Below, one piece after another: positions 391 through 11,581 of a stretch of 64,000 nt of DNA. The notes under the pieces were generated by a model that worked only from the letters and a program-made list of their open reading frames with translations, did no database searches and was not told the DNA's origin. How positions within the stretch are numbered: position 1 is the stretch's first letter; the number at the start of each line of letters is the position of its first letter. The position numbers were made by a program, and so were the translations under genes. Location of the stretch: the NCBI GenBank assembly GCA_965219455.1, contig OZ244744.1, forward strand, positions 416,001 to 480,000, in the 5' to 3' direction. Source of the stretch: Candidatus Latescibacterota bacterium (lineage in GTDB: Bacteria; Latescibacterota; UBA2968; GCA-2709665).

Positions 391-1113
391 TTACCTGTTA
401 CTCCCTTCAAGCAACCGCAGGTCGGCCTTTATTAGAAGATTCACGATATCCAAATGCCCATTCTCGTAAGCCAAATCCTGTGCGGTTTTTCTGTCCGGCG
501 AATCGTGAACCTGTTGGGGATACGTACGATTAAGATATCCGATCCTCTTAGGCGTGCGGCTGTTTGCGTCGACACCGGCGTGTCCACGTCGATCATAAAG
601 GCGACTTCGAGTAGAGCCACTTTTTTTACGCACGTCCGCGCCTGCCTGGATCAGCGCTTTGACGATCTCCACGTGCCCCCTCTCAGCGGCGAACATCAGC
701 GCCGTTTTCCCGTCTCTCAGCGCAAGGTTGGCGTGGTAACGGGAACGATGCGCCATGAACAGGGACTGAGGTCCGGAACTGTCGACATTTACGAACCGCT
801 CTCGGGTAAGCTCTGGAGCCAGATGGCGGTAGATGCGCGTACGCGAATTTGCGCCTATAGTCCAAGCCCTGACATCCAGTTCCGCACCGGCCTGAATCAA
901 CGCCCGGACTACGTCCAGGTGCCCTTCCCTGGCCGCCAGCGTCAGCGGGCTTTGCCCCTGAACCGTCCTGGCATTCACGTCGTGTCCATCGTGCAACGCC
1001 CGCTGCACGGCTTGCAGGTCTCCGAGCTCTGACAATTCCATCAACGAGGCGCCGCAACCCCCCACACCCATCACGATCAACAGAAATGCAAATGGCTTGA
1101 TCGTTCGAGACAT
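391..1113 (-). CDS. Ankyrin-repeat lipoprotein (paralog 1)
   Basis: Start ATG 1113 with GGAGG RBS; lipobox-like VGG-C; ankyrin motifs GQSPLTLAAREGHLDVVRAL, GKTALMFAAERGHVEIVKAL, TAQDLAYENGH. Confidence 0.85.
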   Translation of the reverse strand: MSRTIKPFAFLLIVMGVGGCGASLMELSELGDLQAVQRALHDGHDVNARTVQGQSPLTLAAREGHLDVVRALIQAGAELDVRAWTIGANSRTRIYRHLAPELTRERFVNVDSSGPQSLFMAHRSRYHANLALRDGKTALMFAAERGHVEIVKALIQAGADVRKKSGSTRSRLYDRRGHAGVDANSRTPKRIGYLNRTYPQQVHDSPDRKTAQDLAYENGHLDIVNLLIKADLRLLEGSNR

Positions 1114-1163
1114 TGGCCGCCTCCGCTGTGAGTCGATCATCGATCCTGCTCGTTCCAATCGAA

Positions 1164-1244: not shown

Positions 1245-1928
1245 TCATGGCCCTTCGACATCGACCCCGTTTTTAAGTAGCCTCAAGACTTCCTTCTCCA
1301 CTTCATCGTAGTCTATCTTTCCCGACCACTGCGCCACGATCCGACTCTCTCTATCGAGAAGATACATGGCCGGAATCGCTTTCACCTTGAACTGATACCA
1401 CGCGGGGGTCTGTTTCTCTTCGACAAAGATGGGATAGGAAATATCCAATTTGCCCACCATCTTCCTGATCTTCTCAACGCGGTCTTTGTCTTCATCAATA
1501 GACACACCCCAGACGTCAAAACCCTTGCCGGAATACGCGCTGTAGAGTTTCTGCAACCGGGGCATCGTCTCAAGACAGGGTTTGCACCACGTGGCCCAGA
1601 AATCCACGAGCACGACTTTGCCCTTCAAATTCCTCAACGACTTGTCCCCGCCCTCCAGTGTTTCAATGACGAAGGCAGGTGCAGGCCGCGGGAATACCGG
1701 TGGCAAATAAGCCACGGGATCTGCGTCGAATTCCTTTTCGCAGTTTTCAGAACAGAAATAGTACGCCTTGCCTTCATATTCAGAATGGGCTTTGACCTTT
1801 TCCAACTCCGTCTCGCCGCCCTTCAATGCACAGACAGGGCAGAGCGCCGTTTCGGGAATCCGCGTTTCAGCGAGAAGCGCTGGCGGACCTGACAAAACAA
1901 TCAGAATTAACAGAACGCTAAAACGCAT
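1245..1928 (-). CDS. Secreted YHS/TRASH metal-binding domain + TlpA-like thiol:disulfide oxidoreductase fusion
   Basis: Signal peptide; CPVC...YYFCSENC...F..DP..Y (YHS/TRASH); GKVVLVDFWATWCKPC (TlpA/ResA CxxC); GGAGG RBS. Confidence 0.85.
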   Translation of the reverse strand: MRFSVLLILIVLSGPPALLAETRIPETALCPVCALKGGETELEKVKAHSEYEGKAYYFCSENCEKEFDADPVAYLPPVFPRPAPAFVIETLEGGDKSLRNLKGKVVLVDFWATWCKPCLETMPRLQKLYSAYSGKGFDVWGVSIDEDKDRVEKIRKMVGKLDISYPIFVEEKQTPAWYQFKVKAIPAMYLLDRESRIVAQWSGKIDYDEVEKEVLRLLKNGVDVEGP

Positions 1929-1939
1929 TGATCCTCCAT

Positions 1940-2602
1940 CTAAAACCCGAGTGAAAGCGACAAACCCATGGTTTCAAGCCACACATAAATCACACTCACT
2001 CCGTATTGAGCGGCGAAATAATTCAGCATCAGGTGCCCCCGGTCGCCGTCGTACATCGGTCGAAATGAAAAGCCTTTGCCCAATTCGACCCCCACGCCAA
2101 AGGGAACATTGAGCTTCTCATCCCATTCCGAATAATTCAAACTGCCATAAAAAGACGTGCGCAGCCGGGGTATATATTTGCTTATCGTCGCAAAGTAAGA
2201 TTGTTCGCCCGCCGGCGAACCGATTCGATCCGAACTCGTGCCCAAGAAGAGCGCAGGCCGCGTCTCGGTCTCGGTTAACAGGAACAGAGTCACAAGAGGT
2301 CCCGCCTCTTTGGCTTTCGGGTTCAGCTCAACCCCGACCTGCAGGCGATGATGCAAACTGTAATTGGCGGTGAACCGCCACTGCGGGCGGTCCATTGAGG
2401 TATCTACGTACCGCCCCGAAAATGTAATCTTCGTATGGATGCCACTCCCCCGGAGTGGTGCGCCTTCGCCCGGTCAGCCTACTCACGTAGGTGTCATCGA
2501 AAATGTCGGCCGTTCACTCCGCGTGGAATCCGCGTCCGATTCCTGTGCAAAAACGGGGGAGGTACCGAGGTATAGGATCAAGAAAAAAAGGACGAATTTC
2601 AT
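1940..2602 (-). CDS. Candidate selenoprotein (220 aa): signal peptide, U-V-G-U (two in-frame TGA), beta-barrel-like C-terminal domain
   Basis: GGAG RBS then ATG 2602: MKFVLFFLILYLGTSPVFAQ...MTPT-TGA(2485-2483)-VG-TGA(2476-2474)-PGEGAPLRGSG..., continuing in frame into the 1940..2395 ORF; SECIS-like hairpin directly downstream; ends LSLSLGF. Confidence 0.75.
2437..2473 (-). promoter_or_regulatory. Putative bacterial SECIS element
   Basis: Perfect stem CCACTCC/GGAGTGG (2458-2442) with a G-rich loop; stem begins 15 nt after the second TGA, loop about 22 and 31 nt from the two TGAs. Confidence 0.65.
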
Positions 2603-2729
2603 CAATGTGCTCCGTTGACCGAGCCAAAATAATTCACGAAATGCCGTTTTCTTACTCAAGTCATTGTATTATGGTTAGACCAACAAACCTGCAATAACGA
2701 ACTTCAGGGACACAACTCGCGCATACCAC

Positions 2730-2798: not shown

Positions 2799-3596
2799 CT
2801 ATCTTGAACTCGATGGAGTCATCCCGGCGCCCGTTTCCAGGAGTAAATCGATGATCTCTTTATGTCCGTTCTGGTAAGCGAAGTCCAGTGCCGTGCTTCC
2901 GCCGATCGACCAGGAAGGACGGCCGGGGTATGAATGGACAATATCGTAATAGAGATGGCGGCCATGCTCAGGCCCGTAGTAACTGCCGCCATGTTTATCC
3001 TCTTCGTGTCCGATGTCTTCCGGTTGCGCGCCGGTGTAACCAGCGATATACCCGTCATAATCCTTATACGAAGGCATTCCGGAGGTCACGATTTCACCGC
3101 CGCTTGTCGCGAACAGGTCGGCGCCGCCTTCGACAAGCGCCTCGACAACATCCAGGTGACCGCCCTCGGCAGCAAGCATCAACGCTGTTTTACCGTCTCT
3201 CAGTACCCAACTCGCCGAGCCGCGTGTACGCTGCGCCATAAACCTGGACTGGGGCCCGGAACTGTCGGGGTTGACATACCGTTCCCTGATGAACGCGTAG
3301 CCGCCATGTCGATCCTGGCTTTCGACAGTATGGGCGCCTACGGTCCATGCCACGGCGTCGAGGTCCGCGCCGGCCTGGATCAGGGCCAGAACGACCTCCA
3401 GGTGACCCGCCCTGGCTGCCAGCGTCAACGGGCTGTGCCCCTGAGGCGTCCTGGCATTCACGTCGCGCCCGCGATCGAGGGCCCGCTGGACGCCCGTAAT
3501 GTCTCCACGCTGTGACAATTCTGTCAGCGAAGCGCTGCATCCGGCCGCGCCCACCAGTAAAAGAATCAGCGTTAATCTATTGATTTTAAAGGACAT
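2799..3596 (-). CDS. Ankyrin-repeat lipoprotein (paralog 2)
   Basis: Lipobox AAG-C; GHSPLTLAARAGHLEVV, GKTALMLAAEGGHLDVV, STALDFAYQNGH; clearly paralogous to 391..1113. Confidence 0.85.
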   Translation of the reverse strand: MSFKINRLTLILLLVGAAGCSASLTELSQRGDITGVQRALDRGRDVNARTPQGHSPLTLAARAGHLEVVLALIQAGADLDAVAWTVGAHTVESQDRHGGYAFIRERYVNPDSSGPQSRFMAQRTRGSASWVLRDGKTALMLAAEGGHLDVVEALVEGGADLFATSGGEIVTSGMPSYKDYDGYIAGYTGAQPEDIGHEEDKHGGSYYGPEHGRHLYYDIVHSYPGRPSWSIGGSTALDFAYQNGHKEIIDLLLETGAGMTPSSSR

Positions 3597-7556: not shown

Positions 7557-9220
7557 CCGGGAATCACCGGCAAACGCAGGTATGAAGCATATTGGCGGCT
7601 ATGATGGATCGTCTGGCGGGCGACCCGTACATCATCGTCCAGACCCGGGGTATTCCCCGTATTCAGGTTCCTGTCGAAACGCGGAAAGTTGCTGCTGGAA
7701 ACTTCCAACCTGATCCGATGGCCAGCCTTAAACGAATTACTGGTCTCCCATAGGACGATCCTGTATTCCACGACCGCCCCCGGGCGAATCAGACTCGGTC
7801 TGTGATACGACTCCCGGAATCTCGCCCGTACGATGCCCTCCGTAATGTGGATCGCCATGCCATCCGGATGTACGTCGACGAGGGTGGCCGTAAAATCCGT
7901 ATCCCGTGCATCCGATGCGGCAAACAGGGTGAGTTCCACCGGACCGGTCACTTCCACATCCGACGCCAACGCTTCCGTCGTATACACCAGTACATCCTCG
8001 CGACGTTCCACCGAACACCGATCCCTGGGACCCGTGTTGGCGGGAAACATACTCTGTCCGCCCATCGTCGGTACCGGATCCTCGGGATCGTAGTCGAACC
8101 GATCCGCGGGCTCGTCTCCCGGGCCTTCGCGAGTGAGTTCTCCGTCGCCGAGCAGCGAGCCGGCGCGGCCGCCGCTGTGCAGATAGTACGCTGTGTACTC
8201 CGTTCGCGCCAACGGCCACTCGTTTTCCCAGCGCCAGACATCTTCGCCCATCACGAAAATCCTGACGGGCGGTTCTTCGTCGATCCCGGTATCGATCCCG
8301 CGCAACCGTTGATCGTACCAGCGCAGGTGTTCACGGGGAATATCCACCACGGCGTCAGACCCGAAGTCAATATCTCCAAAGGGTTCCGCGCTCCCGATCT
8401 GCGAATGCGTCCAGGGACCCACCATCAGACGGCTCAATCGCCGGGTCCGGGCGTCGCCTGCGTCCATCCGCCATCCGCGAAAACACTTGAAGCCTTCGTG
8501 GACCAGATTGTCGTACCAGCCCGTCACGAAATAGGCCGGCGTTCTCACCTCCCTGTACCGGCCTTTCATGCTGTATGACGACCAGAACGCGTCGAATTCG
8601 TTGTGCCTGACCACCTCCCTGAAGAACGGCCGGTCCGCGATACCGTCCATGGCCGAAATCAACGGCAGCCGGCGGTAGATCCGGTCCCAGTCCAGCAGGT
8701 CCCGGGGCGCGTTCTGATTGGTCCGTTCGCCGAGCCAGATCCAGTTCATCGCATTCTGCAATTGGAGGACGCCGTTGTAACGCAGGTGCCCGTAGTTGTC
8801 CTCCTGATTCGCAATGGGCATCAGTCCCTTCACGAAGGGACTCCGATGCGGCGCCGGCAGAATTTGGGTGAATCCCGGGTAGGATATCCCGAACATCCCG
8901 ATATTCCCGTCGCACCACGCCTGCGCCCCGATCCATTGCTGCGTGTCATAGCCGTCCCGCGCCTCGTCCACGTACGCCCGCCACTTTCCCTCGGACTCAT
9001 AACGCCCCCGGCTGTCCACCATGATCACCGCGTATCCGGAACTCGAAAAACGCACGGCCCAATCCACATACCTGGGGTGCTGCGTACTGTAGGGCGACCG
9101 GATCAGCAGAACGGGAAACCGCTCTCCACGCGCGGGGCGATACGCCGCACCGTAAAGGTTCACCCCGTCTCTCATGGGGATTTTCAGGTCCAGTTGAATC
9201 CGAATGTCCGCAACCGACAT
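7553..9220 (-). CDS. CocE/NonD family serine hydrolase
   Basis: IPMRDGV.L, RSPY, RGRYESEG, G.SY nucleophile motif, GPWTH, SSNFPRFDRNLN. Confidence 0.92.
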   Translation of the reverse strand: MSVADIRIQLDLKIPMRDGVNLYGAAYRPARGERFPVLLIRSPYSTQHPRYVDWAVRFSSSGYAVIMVDSRGRYESEGKWRAYVDEARDGYDTQQWIGAQAWCDGNIGMFGISYPGFTQILPAPHRSPFVKGLMPIANQEDNYGHLRYNGVLQLQNAMNWIWLGERTNQNAPRDLLDWDRIYRRLPLISAMDGIADRPFFREVVRHNEFDAFWSSYSMKGRYREVRTPAYFVTGWYDNLVHEGFKCFRGWRMDAGDARTRRLSRLMVGPWTHSQIGSAEPFGDIDFGSDAVVDIPREHLRWYDQRLRGIDTGIDEEPPVRIFVMGEDVWRWENEWPLARTEYTAYYLHSGGRAGSLLGDGELTREGPGDEPADRFDYDPEDPVPTMGGQSMFPANTGPRDRCSVERREDVLVYTTEALASDVEVTGPVELTLFAASDARDTDFTATLVDVHPDGMAIHITEGIVRARFRESYHRPSLIRPGAVVEYRIVLWETSNSFKAGHRIRLEVSSSNFPRFDRNLNTGNTPGLDDDVRVARQTIHHSRQYASYLRLPVIPG

Positions 9221-9280
9221 TAGAGGTACCCGGTTTGAAGATTCCCGAACCGTTGAGTCCGGGTCCGCAATCGACCCGCG

Positions 9281-10720
9281 CTATGTCGCCAACCTGTCGA
9301 GTACGTTACGCGTGATGGTCGCGACCGCGCTGCGGTCCCTGTACAGCCCGTGCGCCCACTCGATGGTCGCGGCATTGAATACCGTACCCTCGAACTCCGT
9401 TTCATTTATGGCCACCGTGCCGTAGCACCTGGCTTCACCCTCTTTCCCGCCCTCCTTGACCAGACGGTGGCCGTCGGGCGTCATACATTCGGCAAGGGCC
9501 ACAATTCTATATTCCGGCGACACGCCATCCGTGCCGGTGTACTGCGGCCGTCCATTTTCGAATTTCAGGTCCGCCGCATCCGCCTCCACACCTACGATCG
9601 AGTCCTCCCTTCCGAATTCGTCCCCTTCTTCCAGCTCTGTACCCCCAAACACCCAGTGGTCCGCATCGCACACACGATAATATCCCCAATCTTCGGTCGT
9701 AGGGGCCAGGAACACATTCGGATCGGGTGTCTTTGTGTGGACAAACGACGTGTAGAACAAGCCGATGGTCCTCTGGCGCAAATCGTCCAGAAAACACAGA
9801 AACGACGTCTCCGGTCGCTCGGGGGTCGGATGGTCGTGATAATAGGGCTTCGCGCAATAGATCTGCCTGCCCTGATTTCTCAACTCGATCTCCTGGCAGA
9901 AACAATTCCCGCCGAAGAGAATCAAATTGCCCCCATCCTGAACGAAACGCTGCAGCTGTTCGCACTCGCTCCGGCTGTTGTATTCATCGTGACCGAAGCG
10001 CACATTCGCCCGGTAGTCTTTCAGAATATCGGGTTCCGCGTCGTGGTCGCCGTTCACACAATAATCGACGCGGTACCCTTCGGCATCCAGCCAGGACGTG
10101 AAAAACTGATCCCAGATATAGAAGTTACCCAGACATTCCATCTGAAGGGGGCGTTCGAAACTCAGTAGCTTGGCATGCTGCCGATCTGTGGAAATGTAGT
10201 CGTAGAAGCACTTGCCGCCCACGTTATTGTAGGCCTGGTAGGTATTTGTCGCAACCGTAAGCAACATCGGCGCTTCCGGAGACCTGGGCCGCACCACGAA
10301 GAAAATCTCCCGCAGCCCCTGTCCGGTGGGGAAGGTTGCAAGATAGATCCCGCTCGTCCAGGTATCCGGAACGACGAAAGACACCGTCGGCGCCCACCTG
10401 TATCCATCCTGATAGCCCAGCGCCGGAACCTCCTGAAGCGCCCCCCGGAGGCCCTCGATTGTCTTGACCAACTCCCGCCTGGCACCTTCACGGAAAAGGA
10501 AAATCTCGTAGTATGACCGCGAGTTTGAAATGTGAAACGTGATCTCGTCGCCGGGTCTCACGCTCTGCCGGTCCGCATAGCCGCCCTCCATCAACTTCCA
10601 GCTGATCGTCGCATCCCATTCATGATGCGCCCAGATATGTTCTCTCTTCATCGTGGATACCGCCTTTCTCCGAATGGCCTGATCGCCAGCGACCGCGTGG
10701 TTGTGGGTTGTCCTTGACAC
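9281..10720 (-). CDS. N,N-dimethylformamidase beta-subunit family protein
   Basis: EGY...SV.PGD.I.FH, W.SG.Y, TNTYQAYN..GG..FY, SFERP, GHDEY, GVEAD, VFNAATIEW; start could also be ATG 10651. Confidence 0.75.
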   Translation of the reverse strand: MSRTTHNHAVAGDQAIRRKAVSTMKREHIWAHHEWDATISWKLMEGGYADRQSVRPGDEITFHISNSRSYYEIFLFREGARRELVKTIEGLRGALQEVPALGYQDGYRWAPTVSFVVPDTWTSGIYLATFPTGQGLREIFFVVRPRSPEAPMLLTVATNTYQAYNNVGGKCFYDYISTDRQHAKLLSFERPLQMECLGNFYIWDQFFTSWLDAEGYRVDYCVNGDHDAEPDILKDYRANVRFGHDEYNSRSECEQLQRFVQDGGNLILFGGNCFCQEIELRNQGRQIYCAKPYYHDHPTPERPETSFLCFLDDLRQRTIGLFYTSFVHTKTPDPNVFLAPTTEDWGYYRVCDADHWVFGGTELEEGDEFGREDSIVGVEADAADLKFENGRPQYTGTDGVSPEYRIVALAECMTPDGHRLVKEGGKEGEARCYGTVAINETEFEGTVFNAATIEWAHGLYRDRSAVATITRNVLDRLAT

Positions 10721-10795
10721 AGGTATTCACTCATTCCCATATTGCCCATGCACTCGGGAATTTCAAATCGCCGCCAAGTACGGAAGGGGTCTCCA

Positions 10796-11581
10796 ATGAA
10801 GTCCATCCGACTGGATGTCCGGTATTACCACCTCACCAGGAAAGCCTCCGTTGAAGAAAAAGACTTCCATCTCAGGATCCTTCAGCATGAATACCCGGTG
10901 GACCGGGTCGCGCTGGTGCTCGTCGACGTGTGGAGCGACCACTTCGTATCCACGCATCTGCAGCGCGGCAGGAACATCACCATAGAACGTATTCTTCCCG
11001 TTGCCGACGCCTTCCGATCCGTCGGGGCCGCGGTGATTCACGCGCCCAGCCCCGACTGCGCCAAACGCTATGCGGCGTGGACCCGTTTCGCGGGCGATGA
11101 GGAAGTCTTCGGCCGTTCGTCCCCGCCCCGGGACGACTGGCCGCCCGCGGAATTCCGATCAGGAACGGGCGACTATGAAGAGTGGGCCCAGCCAAAGGAT
11201 CCGCACGACGAGGTCTTCGAAGACATCATCAAGAACCGCCGCATCATTCCCGAAGCCGAACCCCGCGCCGGTGACGACGTTATCGTAACCGGCGCCCAAC
11301 TGCACCGCCTCCTGAAATACAGGGGAATCCTGCACCTGTTCTACGCCGGCTTCGCCGCCAACATGTGCGTCCCCTTCCGGGACTACGGCATGCGGGCAAT
11401 GAAGGACCGCGGCTACGACATTGTCCTCATCAGGGACTGCACCACGGCTATTGAAGTCGCGGAAACCTCCGAGAACCTGGACCTGTCACGGGCGGCCGTA
11501 ATCGACACGGAAGTCAACATAGGATACACGACGTCCCACAGCGACCTGGTTGCGGCCTGCCGGCAGGCGCAGCGAACGTAA
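10796..11581 (+). CDS. Isochorismatase/cysteine hydrolase family protein
   Basis: ALVLVDVW, YAGFAANMCV, LIRDCT; ATG 10796 with AAGGGG RBS. Confidence 0.75.
   Translation: MKSIRLDVRYYHLTRKASVEEKDFHLRILQHEYPVDRVALVLVDVWSDHFVSTHLQRGRNITIERILPVADAFRSVGAAVIHAPSPDCAKRYAAWTRFAGDEEVFGRSSPPRDDWPPAEFRSGTGDYEEWAQPKDPHDEVFEDIIKNRRIIPEAEPRAGDDVIVTGAQLHRLLKYRGILHLFYAGFAANMCVPFRDYGMRAMKDRGYDIVLIRDCTTAIEVAETSENLDLSRAAVIDTEVNIGYTTSHSDLVAACRQAQRT

What the first reader, a model, noticed from the sequence alone, without database searches (positions are those of the whole stretch)
1940..2602. Hidden double-selenocysteine (UxxU) exported protein with a SECIS-like hairpin
Seen: the track's 151-aa ORF has no signal peptide although it ends like an outer-membrane beta-barrel (alternating hydrophobic strands, terminal ...LSLSLGF). 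The same frame extends upstream to a GGAG-RBS/ATG at 2602 encoding a clean Sec signal peptide (MKFVLFFLILYLGTSPVFA|Q). The only interruptions are two TGA codons, at codons 40 and 43 (T-TGA-V-G-TGA-P), which is exactly CxxC spacing. A perfect 7-bp stem CCACTCC-GGG-GGAGTGG starts 15 nt after the second TGA. Established: bacterial SECIS elements lie just 3' of the UGA with a G in the apical loop; UxxU diselenide motifs are very rare (selenoprotein L is the known case). Inference: this is an unannotated 220-aa envelope selenoprotein with a redox- or metal-binding UxxU, and one SECIS may serve both UGAs.
Basis: partly seen in the sequence, partly recalled or inferred. Interest (0 to 1): 0.93.

Follow-up and report, generated by a model that had tools for sequence, protein, structure and literature searches.

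The report
Two-selenocysteine outer-membrane barrel protein
A gene annotated as a short 151-residue protein is really a 220-residue exported beta-barrel protein whose tail very probably carries two selenocysteines three residues apart, a selenoprotein family that I could not find described.

Summary
On the minus strand, 2602..1940 is one frame: signal peptide, T-UGA-V-G-UGA-P at codons 40 and 43, a 7-bp hairpin 15 nt after the second UGA, then a 12-stranded outer-membrane barrel.

Evidence that both UGAs encode selenocysteine:
- **Conservation:** the pair is TGA/TGA in 29 of 29 related genomic loci and 77 of 78 metagenomic loci. There is no TGG, TGC or TGT.
- **Coding signal:** codon periodicity runs through the region.
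- **Hairpin:** it meets the published bacterial SECIS rules. Both of its synonymous-site pairs change in a compensatory way.
- **Machinery:** the genome has selA, selB, tRNA-Sec and selD, and uses TGA as an ordinary stop.
- **Cys homologues:** Armatimonadota homologues have PT-C-A-G-C-AGE at the same columns.

'W' at these positions in a few database proteins is most likely a table-4 gene-calling artefact.

A YHS + TlpA-like thioredoxin gene follows in 27 of 30 genomic loci. In Armatimonadota the YHS domains are fused to the barrel protein.

Best reading: a previously undescribed UxGU selenoprotein whose periplasmic tail is a soft-metal or redox site served by that partner. Selenoprotein status is about 0.85-0.9. 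The function is inferred, at about 0.4.

The parts
2610..2613 (-). GGAG Shine-Dalgarno-like motif, 7 nt upstream of the ATG
   Evidence: Read directly from the sequence.
1940..2602 (-). Full coding sequence: 220 codons plus TAG, with two UGA read as selenocysteine
   Evidence: The frame and the signal peptide are conserved in 29 genomic loci. Third codon positions vary in 28 of 28 codons around the UGAs, against 11 of 28 for the first and for the second positions.
2546..2602 (-). Signal peptide, codons 1-19 (MKFVLFFLILYLGTSPVFA|Q)
   Evidence: Judged by inspection only; no signal-peptide predictor was run. The model shows a helix over residues 2-18. A comparable hydrophobic N-terminus is present in all aligned homologues.
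2483..2485 (-). UGA-1, codon 40, predicted Sec
   Evidence: TGA in 29 of 29 genomic loci and 77 of 78 metagenomic loci, with one TAA. Cys in the Armatimonadota homologues.
2474..2476 (-). UGA-2, codon 43, predicted Sec
   Evidence: TGA in 29 of 29 genomic loci and 78 of 78 metagenomic loci. Cys in the Armatimonadota homologues.
2442..2458 (-). SECIS-like hairpin: 7-bp stem CCACUCC/GGAGUGG with loop GGG. The loop starts 22 nt after UGA-2 and 31 nt after UGA-1.
   Evidence: (-10.0 kcal/mol). In one search, 98.6% of 518 cells are paired, 2 of 7 pairs are compensatory, and 0 of 500 shuffles reach the observed covariation score.
1943..2428 (-). 12-stranded outer-membrane beta-barrel domain, codons 59-220, ending in Phe
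   Evidence: AF2 model, pLDDT about 80 over this part. Structural matches to FapF (Z 17.6), KdgM (Z 16.3), NanC and a designed 12-stranded barrel.
1940..2395 (-). The 151-aa table-11 ORF, which is a truncated annotation
   Evidence: Its Met71 is Leu or another residue in many homologues. Database homologues are called at 151-166 aa.
1245..1928 (-). Partner gene, 11 nt downstream: signal sequence, then a YHS/TRASH-like 4-Cys domain, then a TlpA/ResA-like thioredoxin (WCKPC)
   Evidence: Pfam and NCBIfam hits. Invariant C30, C33, C59, C63, C115 and C118. Directly downstream in 27 of 30 genomic loci and present in 65 of 80 metagenomic loci.

Best explanation
Window 2602..1940 (minus strand) is one gene for a 220-residue exported protein. 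It has a Sec-type signal peptide and a roughly 40-residue flexible tail, which is periplasmic if the usual barrel topology holds. The tail carries the motif PT-U-x-G-U-PGEGAPLRGSG, followed by a 12-stranded outer-membrane beta-barrel.

How the UGAs are read: both UGA codons are decoded as selenocysteine by SelB and Sec-tRNA(Sec). Decoding is directed by a single 7-bp hairpin with a G(G/U)G loop that lies inside the coding sequence (it encodes A-P-L-R-G-S-G). The loop lies 22 nt from UGA-2 and 31 nt from UGA-1. This part rests on comparative evidence. Its likelihood is about 0.85-0.9.

How the protein works (inferred, about 0.4): the two selenols form a soft-metal site, with copper(I) the leading candidate, or a diselenide/selenol redox site at the periplasmic mouth of the barrel.
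- The TlpA-like thioredoxin domain of the co-transcribed partner keeps the site reduced.
- The partner's 4-Cys YHS domain hands metal to it or takes metal from it.
- The two genes thus form a self-contained outer-envelope cassette.

That one hairpin serves both UGAs is inferred from spacing only.
For: 1. **Conserved UGA pair.** All 29 related genomic matches that span codons 40-43 carry two in-frame TGA, and they are in register. Of 80 metagenomic loci, 78 contain the region. Of these, 77 are TGA/TGA, 1 is TAA/TGA, and none has TGG, TGC or TGT.

2. **The region is translated in this frame.** Mean column entropy is 1.29 at third codon positions against 0.30 and 0.26 at the first and second. The 151-aa ORF's start Met is not conserved.

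3. **The hairpin meets the published bSECIS constraints** (Fig. 2 legend of PMC13188914): loop 3-9 nt, stem 4-16 bp, G in the first two loop positions with the G[G|U]N pattern, 16-37 nt from the UGA, and MFE at or below -7.5 kcal/mol. Observed here: 3-nt loop GGG or GUG, 7 bp, 22 and 31 nt, and -10.0 kcal/mol.

4. **Covariation over 74 distinct sequences.**
   - Pair 3 is GC 38, AU 21, GU 9, other 6.
   - Pair 6 is CG 63, UA 10, other 1.
   - Both pairs lie at synonymous third positions.
   - The covariation score is 0.179 against 0.102 +/- 0.008 in shuffles (0 of 500 reach it), and at most 0.071 when the partners are slid.
   - CTT/GGA occurs on three different pair-3 backgrounds.

5. **Sec machinery in the genome.** selA reaches 562 bits, selB 367 bits and tRNA-Sec 73.6 bits. 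selD itself has an in-frame TGA with its own GGUC-loop hairpin. selA is found in 33 of the 34 phylum genomes that have the gene.

6. **TGA is otherwise a stop.** It ends 16 of 39 long ORFs in the window.

7. **Cys homologues.** A profile search over 1.84 billion representatives found P0156, P0162, P0181 and P0223 with PTCAGCA(G/A)EA aligned to PTUVGUPGEG. All 17 Armatimonadota loci have TGC or TGT at both positions.

8. **Fold.** All top structural matches are 12-stranded outer-membrane barrels.

9. **Partner.**
   - The YHS-TlpA gene is adjacent in 27 of 30 genomic and 65 of 80 metagenomic loci.
   - It is the only neighbour conserved across the 10 fetched contexts and the window.
   - In Armatimonadota the YHS domains are fused in front of the CxGC tail and barrel.
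   - A TlpA-like gene follows in 13 of 17 of those loci.

10. **Precedents from passages of papers.**
   - TlpA reduces copper-binding cysteines before metallation (PMC7558416).
   - PcoB is a 12-stranded barrel with a disordered periplasmic N-terminal region needed for copper resistance (PMC12509749).

11. **RNA library.** Contigs of a metatranscriptome run bridge both UGAs and the hairpin. X17 record 4 covers 2346-2534 with no differences, and record 5 covers 2397-2646.
Against: - No selenium or peptide measurement exists.
- Folding energy does not support the hairpin. The region scores z = -1.02 on this sequence alone.
- The 45 nt after the second codon fold as well in the Cys forms (mean -16.3 kcal/mol) as in the Sec forms (-15.4).
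- No Rfam family matches.
- Five of the seven stem pairs never vary, so they say nothing either way. Related sequences inflate the shuffle control.
- One clade carries a C.U mismatch at pair 3 (6 of 74 rows).
- The spacing differs from selD in the same genome (17 nt).
- No bacterial case of one SECIS decoding two UGAs 9 nt apart has been tested, to my knowledge (recalled).
- Four database proteins show W at these positions, and I could not see their own DNA.
- The Armatimonadota genomes with the Cys form also have selA (5 of 5), so Cys use there is not explained by a lack of machinery.
- selA is nearly universal in the families that hold the gene (124 of 131), so co-occurrence is uninformative.

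Against the functional part:
- The tail is modelled at pLDDT below 50.
- No metal gene other than the YHS domain is linked.
- 15 of 80 metagenomic loci show no partner within 1.5 kb. These include the low-GC clade of L147, where the next gene is an unrelated membrane protein.
Confidence: 0.8

Rival explanations
1. The protein is a real two-Sec selenoprotein, but the UxGU tail is not a metal site. It would instead be a diselenide/selenol redox element. For example, it could be an oxidant-sensing plug that gates the barrel, or a peroxide or disulfide-exchange centre recycled by the TlpA-like partner.
For: - Most catalogued bacterial selenoproteins are thiol-oxidoreductase-like (passages of PMC13188914 and PMC2398784).
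- The partner carries a thioredoxin fold with WCxPC.
- With the low-confidence tail included, the best structural alignments to FapF, autotransporter barrels and COG4313 start at model residues 36-43.
- The segment PGEGAPLRGSG is invariant.
Against: - The YHS/TRASH-type 4-Cys domain is conserved in the partner and is fused to the barrel protein in Armatimonadota. A pure redox relay does not need it.
- The tail's position in the model is unreliable, with pLDDT below 50.
- The invariance of APLRGSG is also explained by the overlapping hairpin.
Confidence: 0.25
2. The UGAs are read through by a near-cognate tRNA such as Trp, or by another recoding event that the hairpin stimulates. The protein would then carry W-x-x-W rather than Sec.
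For: Database proteins P0020, P0065 and P0193 show W at both positions, and P0133 shows C..W. TGA and TGG differ by one base.
Against: - No TGG at either position in 107 loci.
- The closest DNA relatives of P0065 (85% identical) have TGA/TGA. P0020 and P0065 sit on contigs of 1480 and 1020 nt, where a table-4 gene call is a known artefact (recalled).
- Homologues have Cys, not Trp.
- The hairpin fits the SECIS rules.
- TGA is a normal stop in the window.
Confidence: 0.04
3. The UGAs are true stops. A 39-residue secreted peptide and a separate leaderless 151-residue protein are made, and the hairpin has another role such as attenuation or mRNA stability.
For: This is how table 11 and the public gene callers read it.
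Against: - Protein-coding periodicity and invariant residues continue between UGA-2 and Met71.
- Met71 is not conserved.
- A barrel without a signal peptide could not be exported (established knowledge).
- The Cys homologues are continuous through the motif.
Confidence: 0.04
4. The gene is a pseudogene or carries sequencing errors.
For: Some relatives are clearly decayed. L038 has an extra TAA and a broken hairpin arm. L055 has a TAG. G133 and G135 hold only fragments. L141 has TAA in place of UGA-1.
Against: The same two TGA recur in 106 of 107 loci, spanning down to 55% protein identity, with purifying selection around them. DNA contigs of two further studies hold the stretch.
Confidence: 0.01

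Closest known systems
[quoted passage not shown]
   Same: Two Sec in CxxC spacing, an in-frame bacterial SECIS, and Cys homologues with CxxC.
   Different: No sequence relation: NCBIfam and Pfam give no hit at E <= 1. Here the motif sits in a flexible tail in front of an outer-membrane barrel, not inside a thioredoxin, HMA or zinc-ribbon fold.
Selenoprotein L
   Same: The UxxU motif.
   Different: SelL is a Prx/Trx-like fold with a 3'-UTR eukaryotic SECIS (recalled, and mentioned in PMC2398784). This protein is a bacterial barrel with a SECIS inside the coding sequence.
Outer-membrane selenoproteins in the 2026 catalogue: the GSU2204 / MtrB-PioB family barrel (NF041027) and the FCYXU TonB-dependent receptor (NF049945)
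   Same: A Sec-containing outer-membrane beta-barrel protein.
   Different: No match to either model. Those have one Sec and much larger barrels (the sizes are recalled).
PcoB / CopB copper outer-membrane channel
   Same: A 12-stranded barrel preceded by a disordered, periplasm-facing N-terminal region needed for copper resistance, in a two-gene operon (passages of PMC12509749).
   Different: No Pfam CopB hit. The tail carries UxGU rather than many His and Met. The partner is YHS-TlpA, not a multicopper oxidase.
TlpA with ScoI/CoxB (CuA assembly)
   Same: A periplasmic TlpA-like thioredoxin that reduces metal-binding Cys pairs before metallation (passage of PMC7558416).
   Different: The presumed substrate here is a Sec pair on an outer-membrane protein. 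The thioredoxin is fused to a YHS domain. Scores are far below the TlpA and ResA cut-offs: 65 against 230 bits and 94 against 170 bits.
FapF, KdgM and NanC 12-stranded barrels
   Same: The fold: Z 17.6, 16.3 and 13.9, rmsd 2.5-2.9 over 152-169 residues.
   Different: 7-15% identity and no family match. Their substrates (amyloid subunits, oligogalacturonate, sialic acid) are not implied.

Membership tests
Bacterial selenoprotein (SelB/SECIS-decoded UGA) | In-frame UGA conserved among orthologues | tested here: met
   29 of 29 genomic loci. 77 of 78 metagenomic loci are TGA/TGA.
Bacterial selenoprotein (SelB/SECIS-decoded UGA) | Hairpin meeting the bSECIS model: loop 3-9 nt, stem 4-16 bp, G in the first two loop positions, 16-37 nt from the UGA, MFE <= -7.5 kcal/mol | tested here: met
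   Rules taken from the Fig. 2 legend of PMC13188914. Observed: 3-nt G(G/U)G loop, 7 bp, 22 and 31 nt, -10.0 kcal/mol, with covariation. The bSECISearch program itself was not available.
Bacterial selenoprotein (SelB/SECIS-decoded UGA) | selA, selB, selC and selD in the genome | tested here: met
   all four are above the curated cut-offs.
Bacterial selenoprotein (SelB/SECIS-decoded UGA) | Homologues with Cys aligned to the UGA positions | tested here: met
   P0156, P0162, P0181 and P0223. 17 of 17 Armatimonadota loci have TGC or TGT at both positions.
Bacterial selenoprotein (SelB/SECIS-decoded UGA) | Selenium shown in the protein | not testable with these tools
   Needs 75Se labelling or mass spectrometry.
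Outer-membrane beta-barrel, 12-stranded class | N-terminal Sec-type signal peptide | tested here: met
   By inspection only. No predictor was run.
Outer-membrane beta-barrel, 12-stranded class | Even-numbered antiparallel barrel matching solved outer-membrane barrels, with an aromatic C-terminal residue | tested here: met
   12 strands between residues 59 and 219. Z 14-17.6 to FapF, KdgM, autotransporter and NanC barrels. Terminal Phe.
KdgM, CopB or any other Pfam outer-membrane protein family | Sequence match to the family model | tested here: not met
   No Pfam family at E <= 1 for either the 220-aa or the 151-aa form.
PcoB/CopB copper channel | His/Met-rich N-terminal region and a multicopper-oxidase partner | tested here: not met
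   The tail carries UxGU, with one Met and one His between the signal-peptide cleavage site and the first barrel strand, residues 20-58. The partner is YHS-TlpA.
Catalogued selenoprotein families with NCBIfam models (NF041027, NF049945, NF041115, GOS_B/C and others) | Match to the curated model | tested here: not met
   No NCBIfam family at E <= 1 for P0001.
Selenoprotein L | UxxU inside a thioredoxin/Prx-like fold | tested here: not met
   The motif lies in a low-confidence tail (residues 19-53, pLDDT < 50) in front of a beta-barrel.

The most novel reading that the evidence does not exclude
This would be a natural diselenol metal site on the periplasmic tail of an outer-membrane channel. Together with a YHS-thioredoxin partner it would form a two-gene, selenium-dependent envelope cassette for copper or another soft metal. 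Its two UGAs, 9 nt apart, would be decoded from a single SECIS hairpin. That would make it the first outer-membrane metal gate built on selenocysteine and a ready natural test case for one SECIS serving two UGAs.
Probability: 0.3. Interest if true: 0.75.

Novelty: new member of a known kind. Interest (0 to 1): 0.62.

Why it matters
- **Annotation.** Several hundred database entries of this family are truncated. 869 homologues were found, and nearly all of the 120 listed are called at 151-166 aa without a signal peptide. A few carry spurious W. Reading the UGAs as Sec restores an exported protein.
- **A new selenoprotein setting.** The family adds a two-Sec member in an unusual place, the flexible tail of an outer-membrane barrel, in a poorly known phylum. 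Sources name close homologues Candidatus Latescibacterota.
- **A natural experiment on SECIS rules.** There are two UGAs 9 nt apart and one hairpin. More than 70 natural variants show which stem positions may change.
- **A testable module.** Conserved synteny in one phylum and domain fusion in Armatimonadota link an uncharacterised barrel to a YHS domain and a TlpA-like thioredoxin. This is a testable hypothesis for metal or redox traffic across the outer envelope.

Tried and rejected
- **Pfam and NCBIfam** on the 220-aa and 151-aa forms: no family at E <= 1.
- **Rfam** on 2350-2560 at E <= 10: nothing.
- **Folding energy as evidence for the hairpin:** not significant on this sequence, and no different between Sec and Cys forms. 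I rely on position and covariation instead.
- **A second SECIS for UGA-1:** not supported. The 3-bp GCG/CGC helix and the hairpin holding UGA-1 in its loop show no compensatory change and are broken in several sequences.
- **The search for related loci with the broad alignment A3:** The narrower Cys-form alignment A4 worked.
- **Complex prediction** for the tail and barrel with YHS-TlpA: not run, because the tool does not take read-through translations. The step was dropped, so whether the two proteins bind is untested.
- **Co-occurrence with selA:** 33 of 34 carriers have it. I reject this as evidence because selA is nearly universal in those families.
- **Searching for further conserved neighbours:** none beyond the partner in 10 fetched contexts plus the window.
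- **Earlier findings of this scan,** by place and by sequence: nothing.
- **RNA-run contigs:** they cover only parts of the stretch, and DNA carry-over cannot be excluded. I treat them as a weak hint of transcription only. The uncovered parts say nothing.
Full report
**1. Observation**

On the minus strand a GGAG (2613..2610) lies 7 nt before ATG 2602. The frame then reads MKFVLFFLILYLGTSPVFA|QESD...TPT-UGA-V-G-UGA-PGEGAPLRGSG and runs open to TAG 1942..1940, ending ...LSLSLGF.
- The UGAs are at 2485..2483 (codon 40) and 2476..2474 (codon 43).
- After a 15-nt spacer comes CCACTCC-GGG-GGAGTGG (2458..2442).
- Under table 11 only a 151-aa ORF (1940..2395) and a 58-aa ORF are listed.

Taken alone it is only mildly unusual. 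In the window, 20 of 1734 TGA triplets are followed by a comparable hairpin. The region folds no better than shuffles: z = -1.02, and 33 of 200 shuffles fold as well.

**2. The two UGAs are conserved and lie in translated sequence**

A six-frame search of 168 genomes of the same phylum found the gene in 34.
- All 29 matches that span codons 40-43 carry two in-frame TGA, down to 55% identity.
- I confirmed on the DNA that these are TGA-NNN-GGN-TGA in register, each preceded in frame by a signal-peptide-like N-terminus.
- L054 is cut by a contig end and could not be scored.

A scan of metagenome contigs kept the best 80 of 265 relatives.
- It was seeded with the peptides PGEGAPLRG and GTSSDRIGS. 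It therefore favours Sec-type lineages, but it is blind to the codons in question.
- 78 of the 80 contain the region. Of these, 77 are TGA/TGA and 1 is TAA/TGA. None has TGG, TGC or TGT.
- L109 and L129 start downstream of the motif.

Across 74 distinct sequences, third codon positions vary in 28 of 28 codons around the UGAs, against 11 of 28 for the first and for the second positions. The stretch between UGA-2 and the annotated Met71 is therefore under protein-level selection in this frame. Met71 itself is Leu or another residue in many homologues. TGA ends 16 of 39 long ORFs in the window, so the genome does not reassign TGA globally.

**3. The hairpin**

The bacterial SECIS model quoted in a 2026 review requires (Fig. 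2 legend of PMC13188914, read as a passage):
- a 3-9 nt loop and a 4-16 bp stem;
- G in the first two loop positions, mostly N1-G-[G|U]-N-N2;
- 16-37 nt between the UGA and the loop;
- MFE at or below -7.5 kcal/mol.

This hairpin has a 7-bp stem and a G(G/U)G loop closed by C-G. Its energy is -10.0 kcal/mol. The loop starts 22 nt after UGA-2 and 31 nt after UGA-1.

I counted base pairs on 83 aligned sequences, 74 of them distinct. Three rows were left out: the decayed copies L038 and L055, and L141, which has TAA at the first position.
- 98.6% of 518 cells pair.
- Five pairs never vary, because they sit at first and second codon positions of invariant residues.
- The two pairs at synonymous third positions both change compensatorily.
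- Pair 3 (Pro CCN with Ser AGY) is GC 38, AU 21, GU 9, other 6.
- Pair 6 (Leu CTY with Gly GGR) is CG 63, UA 10, other 1.
- The covariation score is 0.179 against 0.102 +/- 0.008 in shuffles (0 of 500 reach it), and at most 0.071 when the partners are slid.
- The CTT/GGA state occurs on three different pair-3 backgrounds, which argues for repeated events.

Meanwhile, the third positions of the 15-nt spacer vary freely.

Results against the hairpin:
- Folding energy does not separate Sec forms (mean -15.4 kcal/mol) from Cys forms (-16.3).
- Rfam finds nothing.
- One clade keeps a C.U mismatch at pair 3.
- No second hairpin for UGA-1 is supported.

**4. Machinery**

The genome has selA (562 bits), selB (367 bits) and tRNA-Sec (73.6 bits) side by side. 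It also has selD with its own in-frame TGA. That TGA sits in a ...CG-U-AAK... context and is followed by an AGUCC-GGUC-GGACU hairpin whose loop starts 17 nt after the UGA.

selA is found in 33 of the 34 genomes that carry the gene. The exception is 81% complete. However, selA is nearly universal in those families (124 of 131), so this adds little.

**5. Cys homologues and the 'W' entries**

A word-based search found 869 homologues. Nearly all of the 120 listed are 151-166 aa, which are truncated calls. Two full-length entries, P0020 and P0065, show W at both positions.

A profile search of 1.84 billion representatives gave 210 hits. Among those that reach the N-terminus:
- P0156, P0162, P0181 and P0223 have PTCAGCA(G/A)EA aligned to PTUVGUPGEG.
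- P0133 has C..W, and P0193 has W..W.
- Several others lack the motif.

A genome scan with the Cys forms returned 17 loci. By their record titles, 16 are Armatimonadota (Fimbriimonadaceae, Chthonomonas, Armatimonadota). One (L067) is titled Methyloversatilis; its motif peptide matches that of an Armatimonadota locus (L070) at 28 of 29 residues. All 17 have TGC or TGT at both positions.

For the W entries:
- The nearest DNA relatives of P0065 (L139, L145, L149; 85% identical) read A-P-T-TGA-S-A-TGA-P.
- P0020 and P0065 come from contigs of 1480 and 1020 nt.
- I therefore read the W as table-4 gene calls. That this artefact exists is recalled, and their own DNA was not seen.

The Cys/Sec pairing at both columns is the classical signature of a selenoprotein. 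It argues strongly against Trp.

**6. Fold**

An AlphaFold2 model built from 25 aligned sequences has mean pLDDT 71.
- Residues 59-220 score about 80 and form 12 strands.
- Residues 19-53, which hold the UxGU tail, score below 50.

Foldseek and a second aligner return only outer-membrane barrels:
- FapF: Z 17.6, rmsd 2.5 over 169 residues.
- KdgM: Z 16.3, with 153 of 170 residues aligned.
- Also a COG4313 channel, autotransporter barrels, NanC and a designed 12-stranded barrel.

With an even number of strands, both termini should face the periplasm (established knowledge of such barrels). This places the tail there.

**7. Partner and mechanism**

Eleven nt downstream lies a gene for a signal sequence, a YHS domain and a TlpA/ResA-like thioredoxin. 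Its invariant residues are C30-x2-C33...C59-x3-C63 and WC115xPC118.

Linkage:
- The gene follows directly in 27 of 30 genomic loci. One exception has a 455-aa ORF inserted between the two genes, and one is cut by a contig end.
- It is present in 65 of 80 metagenomic loci.
- The 15 without it include short contigs. They also include the low-GC clade of L147, where the next gene is an unrelated membrane protein.
- In 10 fetched contexts of about 16-20 kb plus the window, the barrel gene and this partner are the only families shared by three or more loci.

In Armatimonadota the arrangement is a fusion. The order is signal peptide, YHS domains (three matched stretches in L064, E 2.4e-18), the PTCAGCAGEA tail and the barrel, all in one 406-aa ORF. 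A separate TlpA-like thioredoxin gene follows it. A thioredoxin-like hit lies downstream in 13 of 17 of these loci.

Synteny in one phylum and fusion in another tie four elements together: the barrel, the (U/C)xG(U/C) tail, the YHS domain and the thioredoxin.

From known biology:
- TlpA reduces copper-binding cysteines before metallation (passage of PMC7558416).
- PcoB is a 12-stranded barrel whose disordered periplasmic N-terminal region is needed for copper resistance (passages of PMC12509749).
- YHS/TRASH domains are predicted heavy-metal binders (recalled from the Pfam description).

The most likely mechanism is therefore a soft-metal site, with copper(I) first, or a redox site on the tail. 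The thioredoxin would keep it reduced and the YHS domain would serve it. This step is inference, at about 0.4. A purely redox or gating role is the main functional rival.

**8. Expression hint**

Contigs of a metatranscriptome run bridge both UGAs, the hairpin and the annotated start. X17 record 4 covers 2346-2534 with no differences, and record 5 covers 2397-2646. DNA contigs of two other studies also hold the stretch. DNA carry-over in RNA libraries cannot be excluded.

**9. Comparison and novelty**

No Pfam or NCBIfam model matches, including the curated selenoprotein models.

Full-text searches found no description of such a protein. The terms were 'UxxU' + selenoprotein, selenocysteine + Latescibacter, selenoprotein + 'YHS domain', and selenoprotein + outer membrane + beta-barrel + SECIS. 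For the two reviews and the GOS paper I read only passages around the search terms.
- The 2026 catalogue's three UxxU entries are a Prx-like protein, NF041115 and the FmdB family.
- Its outer-membrane entries are NF041027 and NF049945.

I file this as a new member of a known kind: a bacterial SECIS-decoded selenoprotein. Its unusual features are a double Sec, a position in the tail of an outer-membrane barrel, and two UGAs 9 nt apart in front of one hairpin.

**10. Verdict**

- Observation: confirmed.
- Selenoprotein status: about 0.85-0.9.
- Function: inferred.
- Interest: 0.62.

Noticed in passing
Database proteins P0020, P0065, P0193, P0133: Public gene calls show W at one or both Sec positions. 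The closest DNA relatives of P0065 have TGA there, so these look like table-4 calls on short contigs. P0133 (P-A-C-V-G-W-PGEG) may be a CxxU form.
   Followed up: partly
L038 (G144), L055 (G142), G133, G135, L141: Decayed copies of the gene. They show an extra TAA at codon 20 with a broken hairpin arm, an internal TAG with truncation, fragments only, or TAA in place of UGA-1.
   Followed up: partly
L064 2404-4090 (Fimbriimonadaceae chromosome): The Cys form is a 406-aa fusion of YHS domains, a CxGC tail and the barrel. A TlpA-like thioredoxin gene follows 4 nt later. Five of five such genomes also have selA.
   Followed up: yes
L160 (G060) 8239-11177: A 455-aa ORF sits between the barrel gene and the YHS-TlpA gene. 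It looks like an insertion into the cassette and was not identified.
   Followed up: no
window 391-1158 and 2799-3596, minus strand: Two ankyrin-repeat proteins, each with an N-terminal hydrophobic segment ending in Cys, flank the cassette. They are 46-48% identical to each other. The flanking is seen only in some genomes of the same genus.
   Followed up: partly
G000:C1:3407174-3408097 (L015) and C1:4374106-4377628: selD of this genome is itself a selenoprotein (..CG-U-AAK..) with an AGUCC-GGUC-GGACU hairpin 17 nt after the UGA. selA, selB and tRNA-Sec are adjacent to one another.
   Followed up: partly
window 2477-2491, minus strand: A weak hairpin, CCUAC-GUGA-GUAGG, holds UGA-1 in its loop. 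It is only partly conserved, shows no compensatory change and is broken when residue 41 is Thr, Ser or Met.
   Followed up: partly
L147 1351-3542: A low-GC clade of the family (233 aa, A-P-T-U-S-A-U-P) lacks the YHS-TlpA neighbour. The next gene encodes an unrelated 335-aa multi-pass membrane protein.
   Followed up: no
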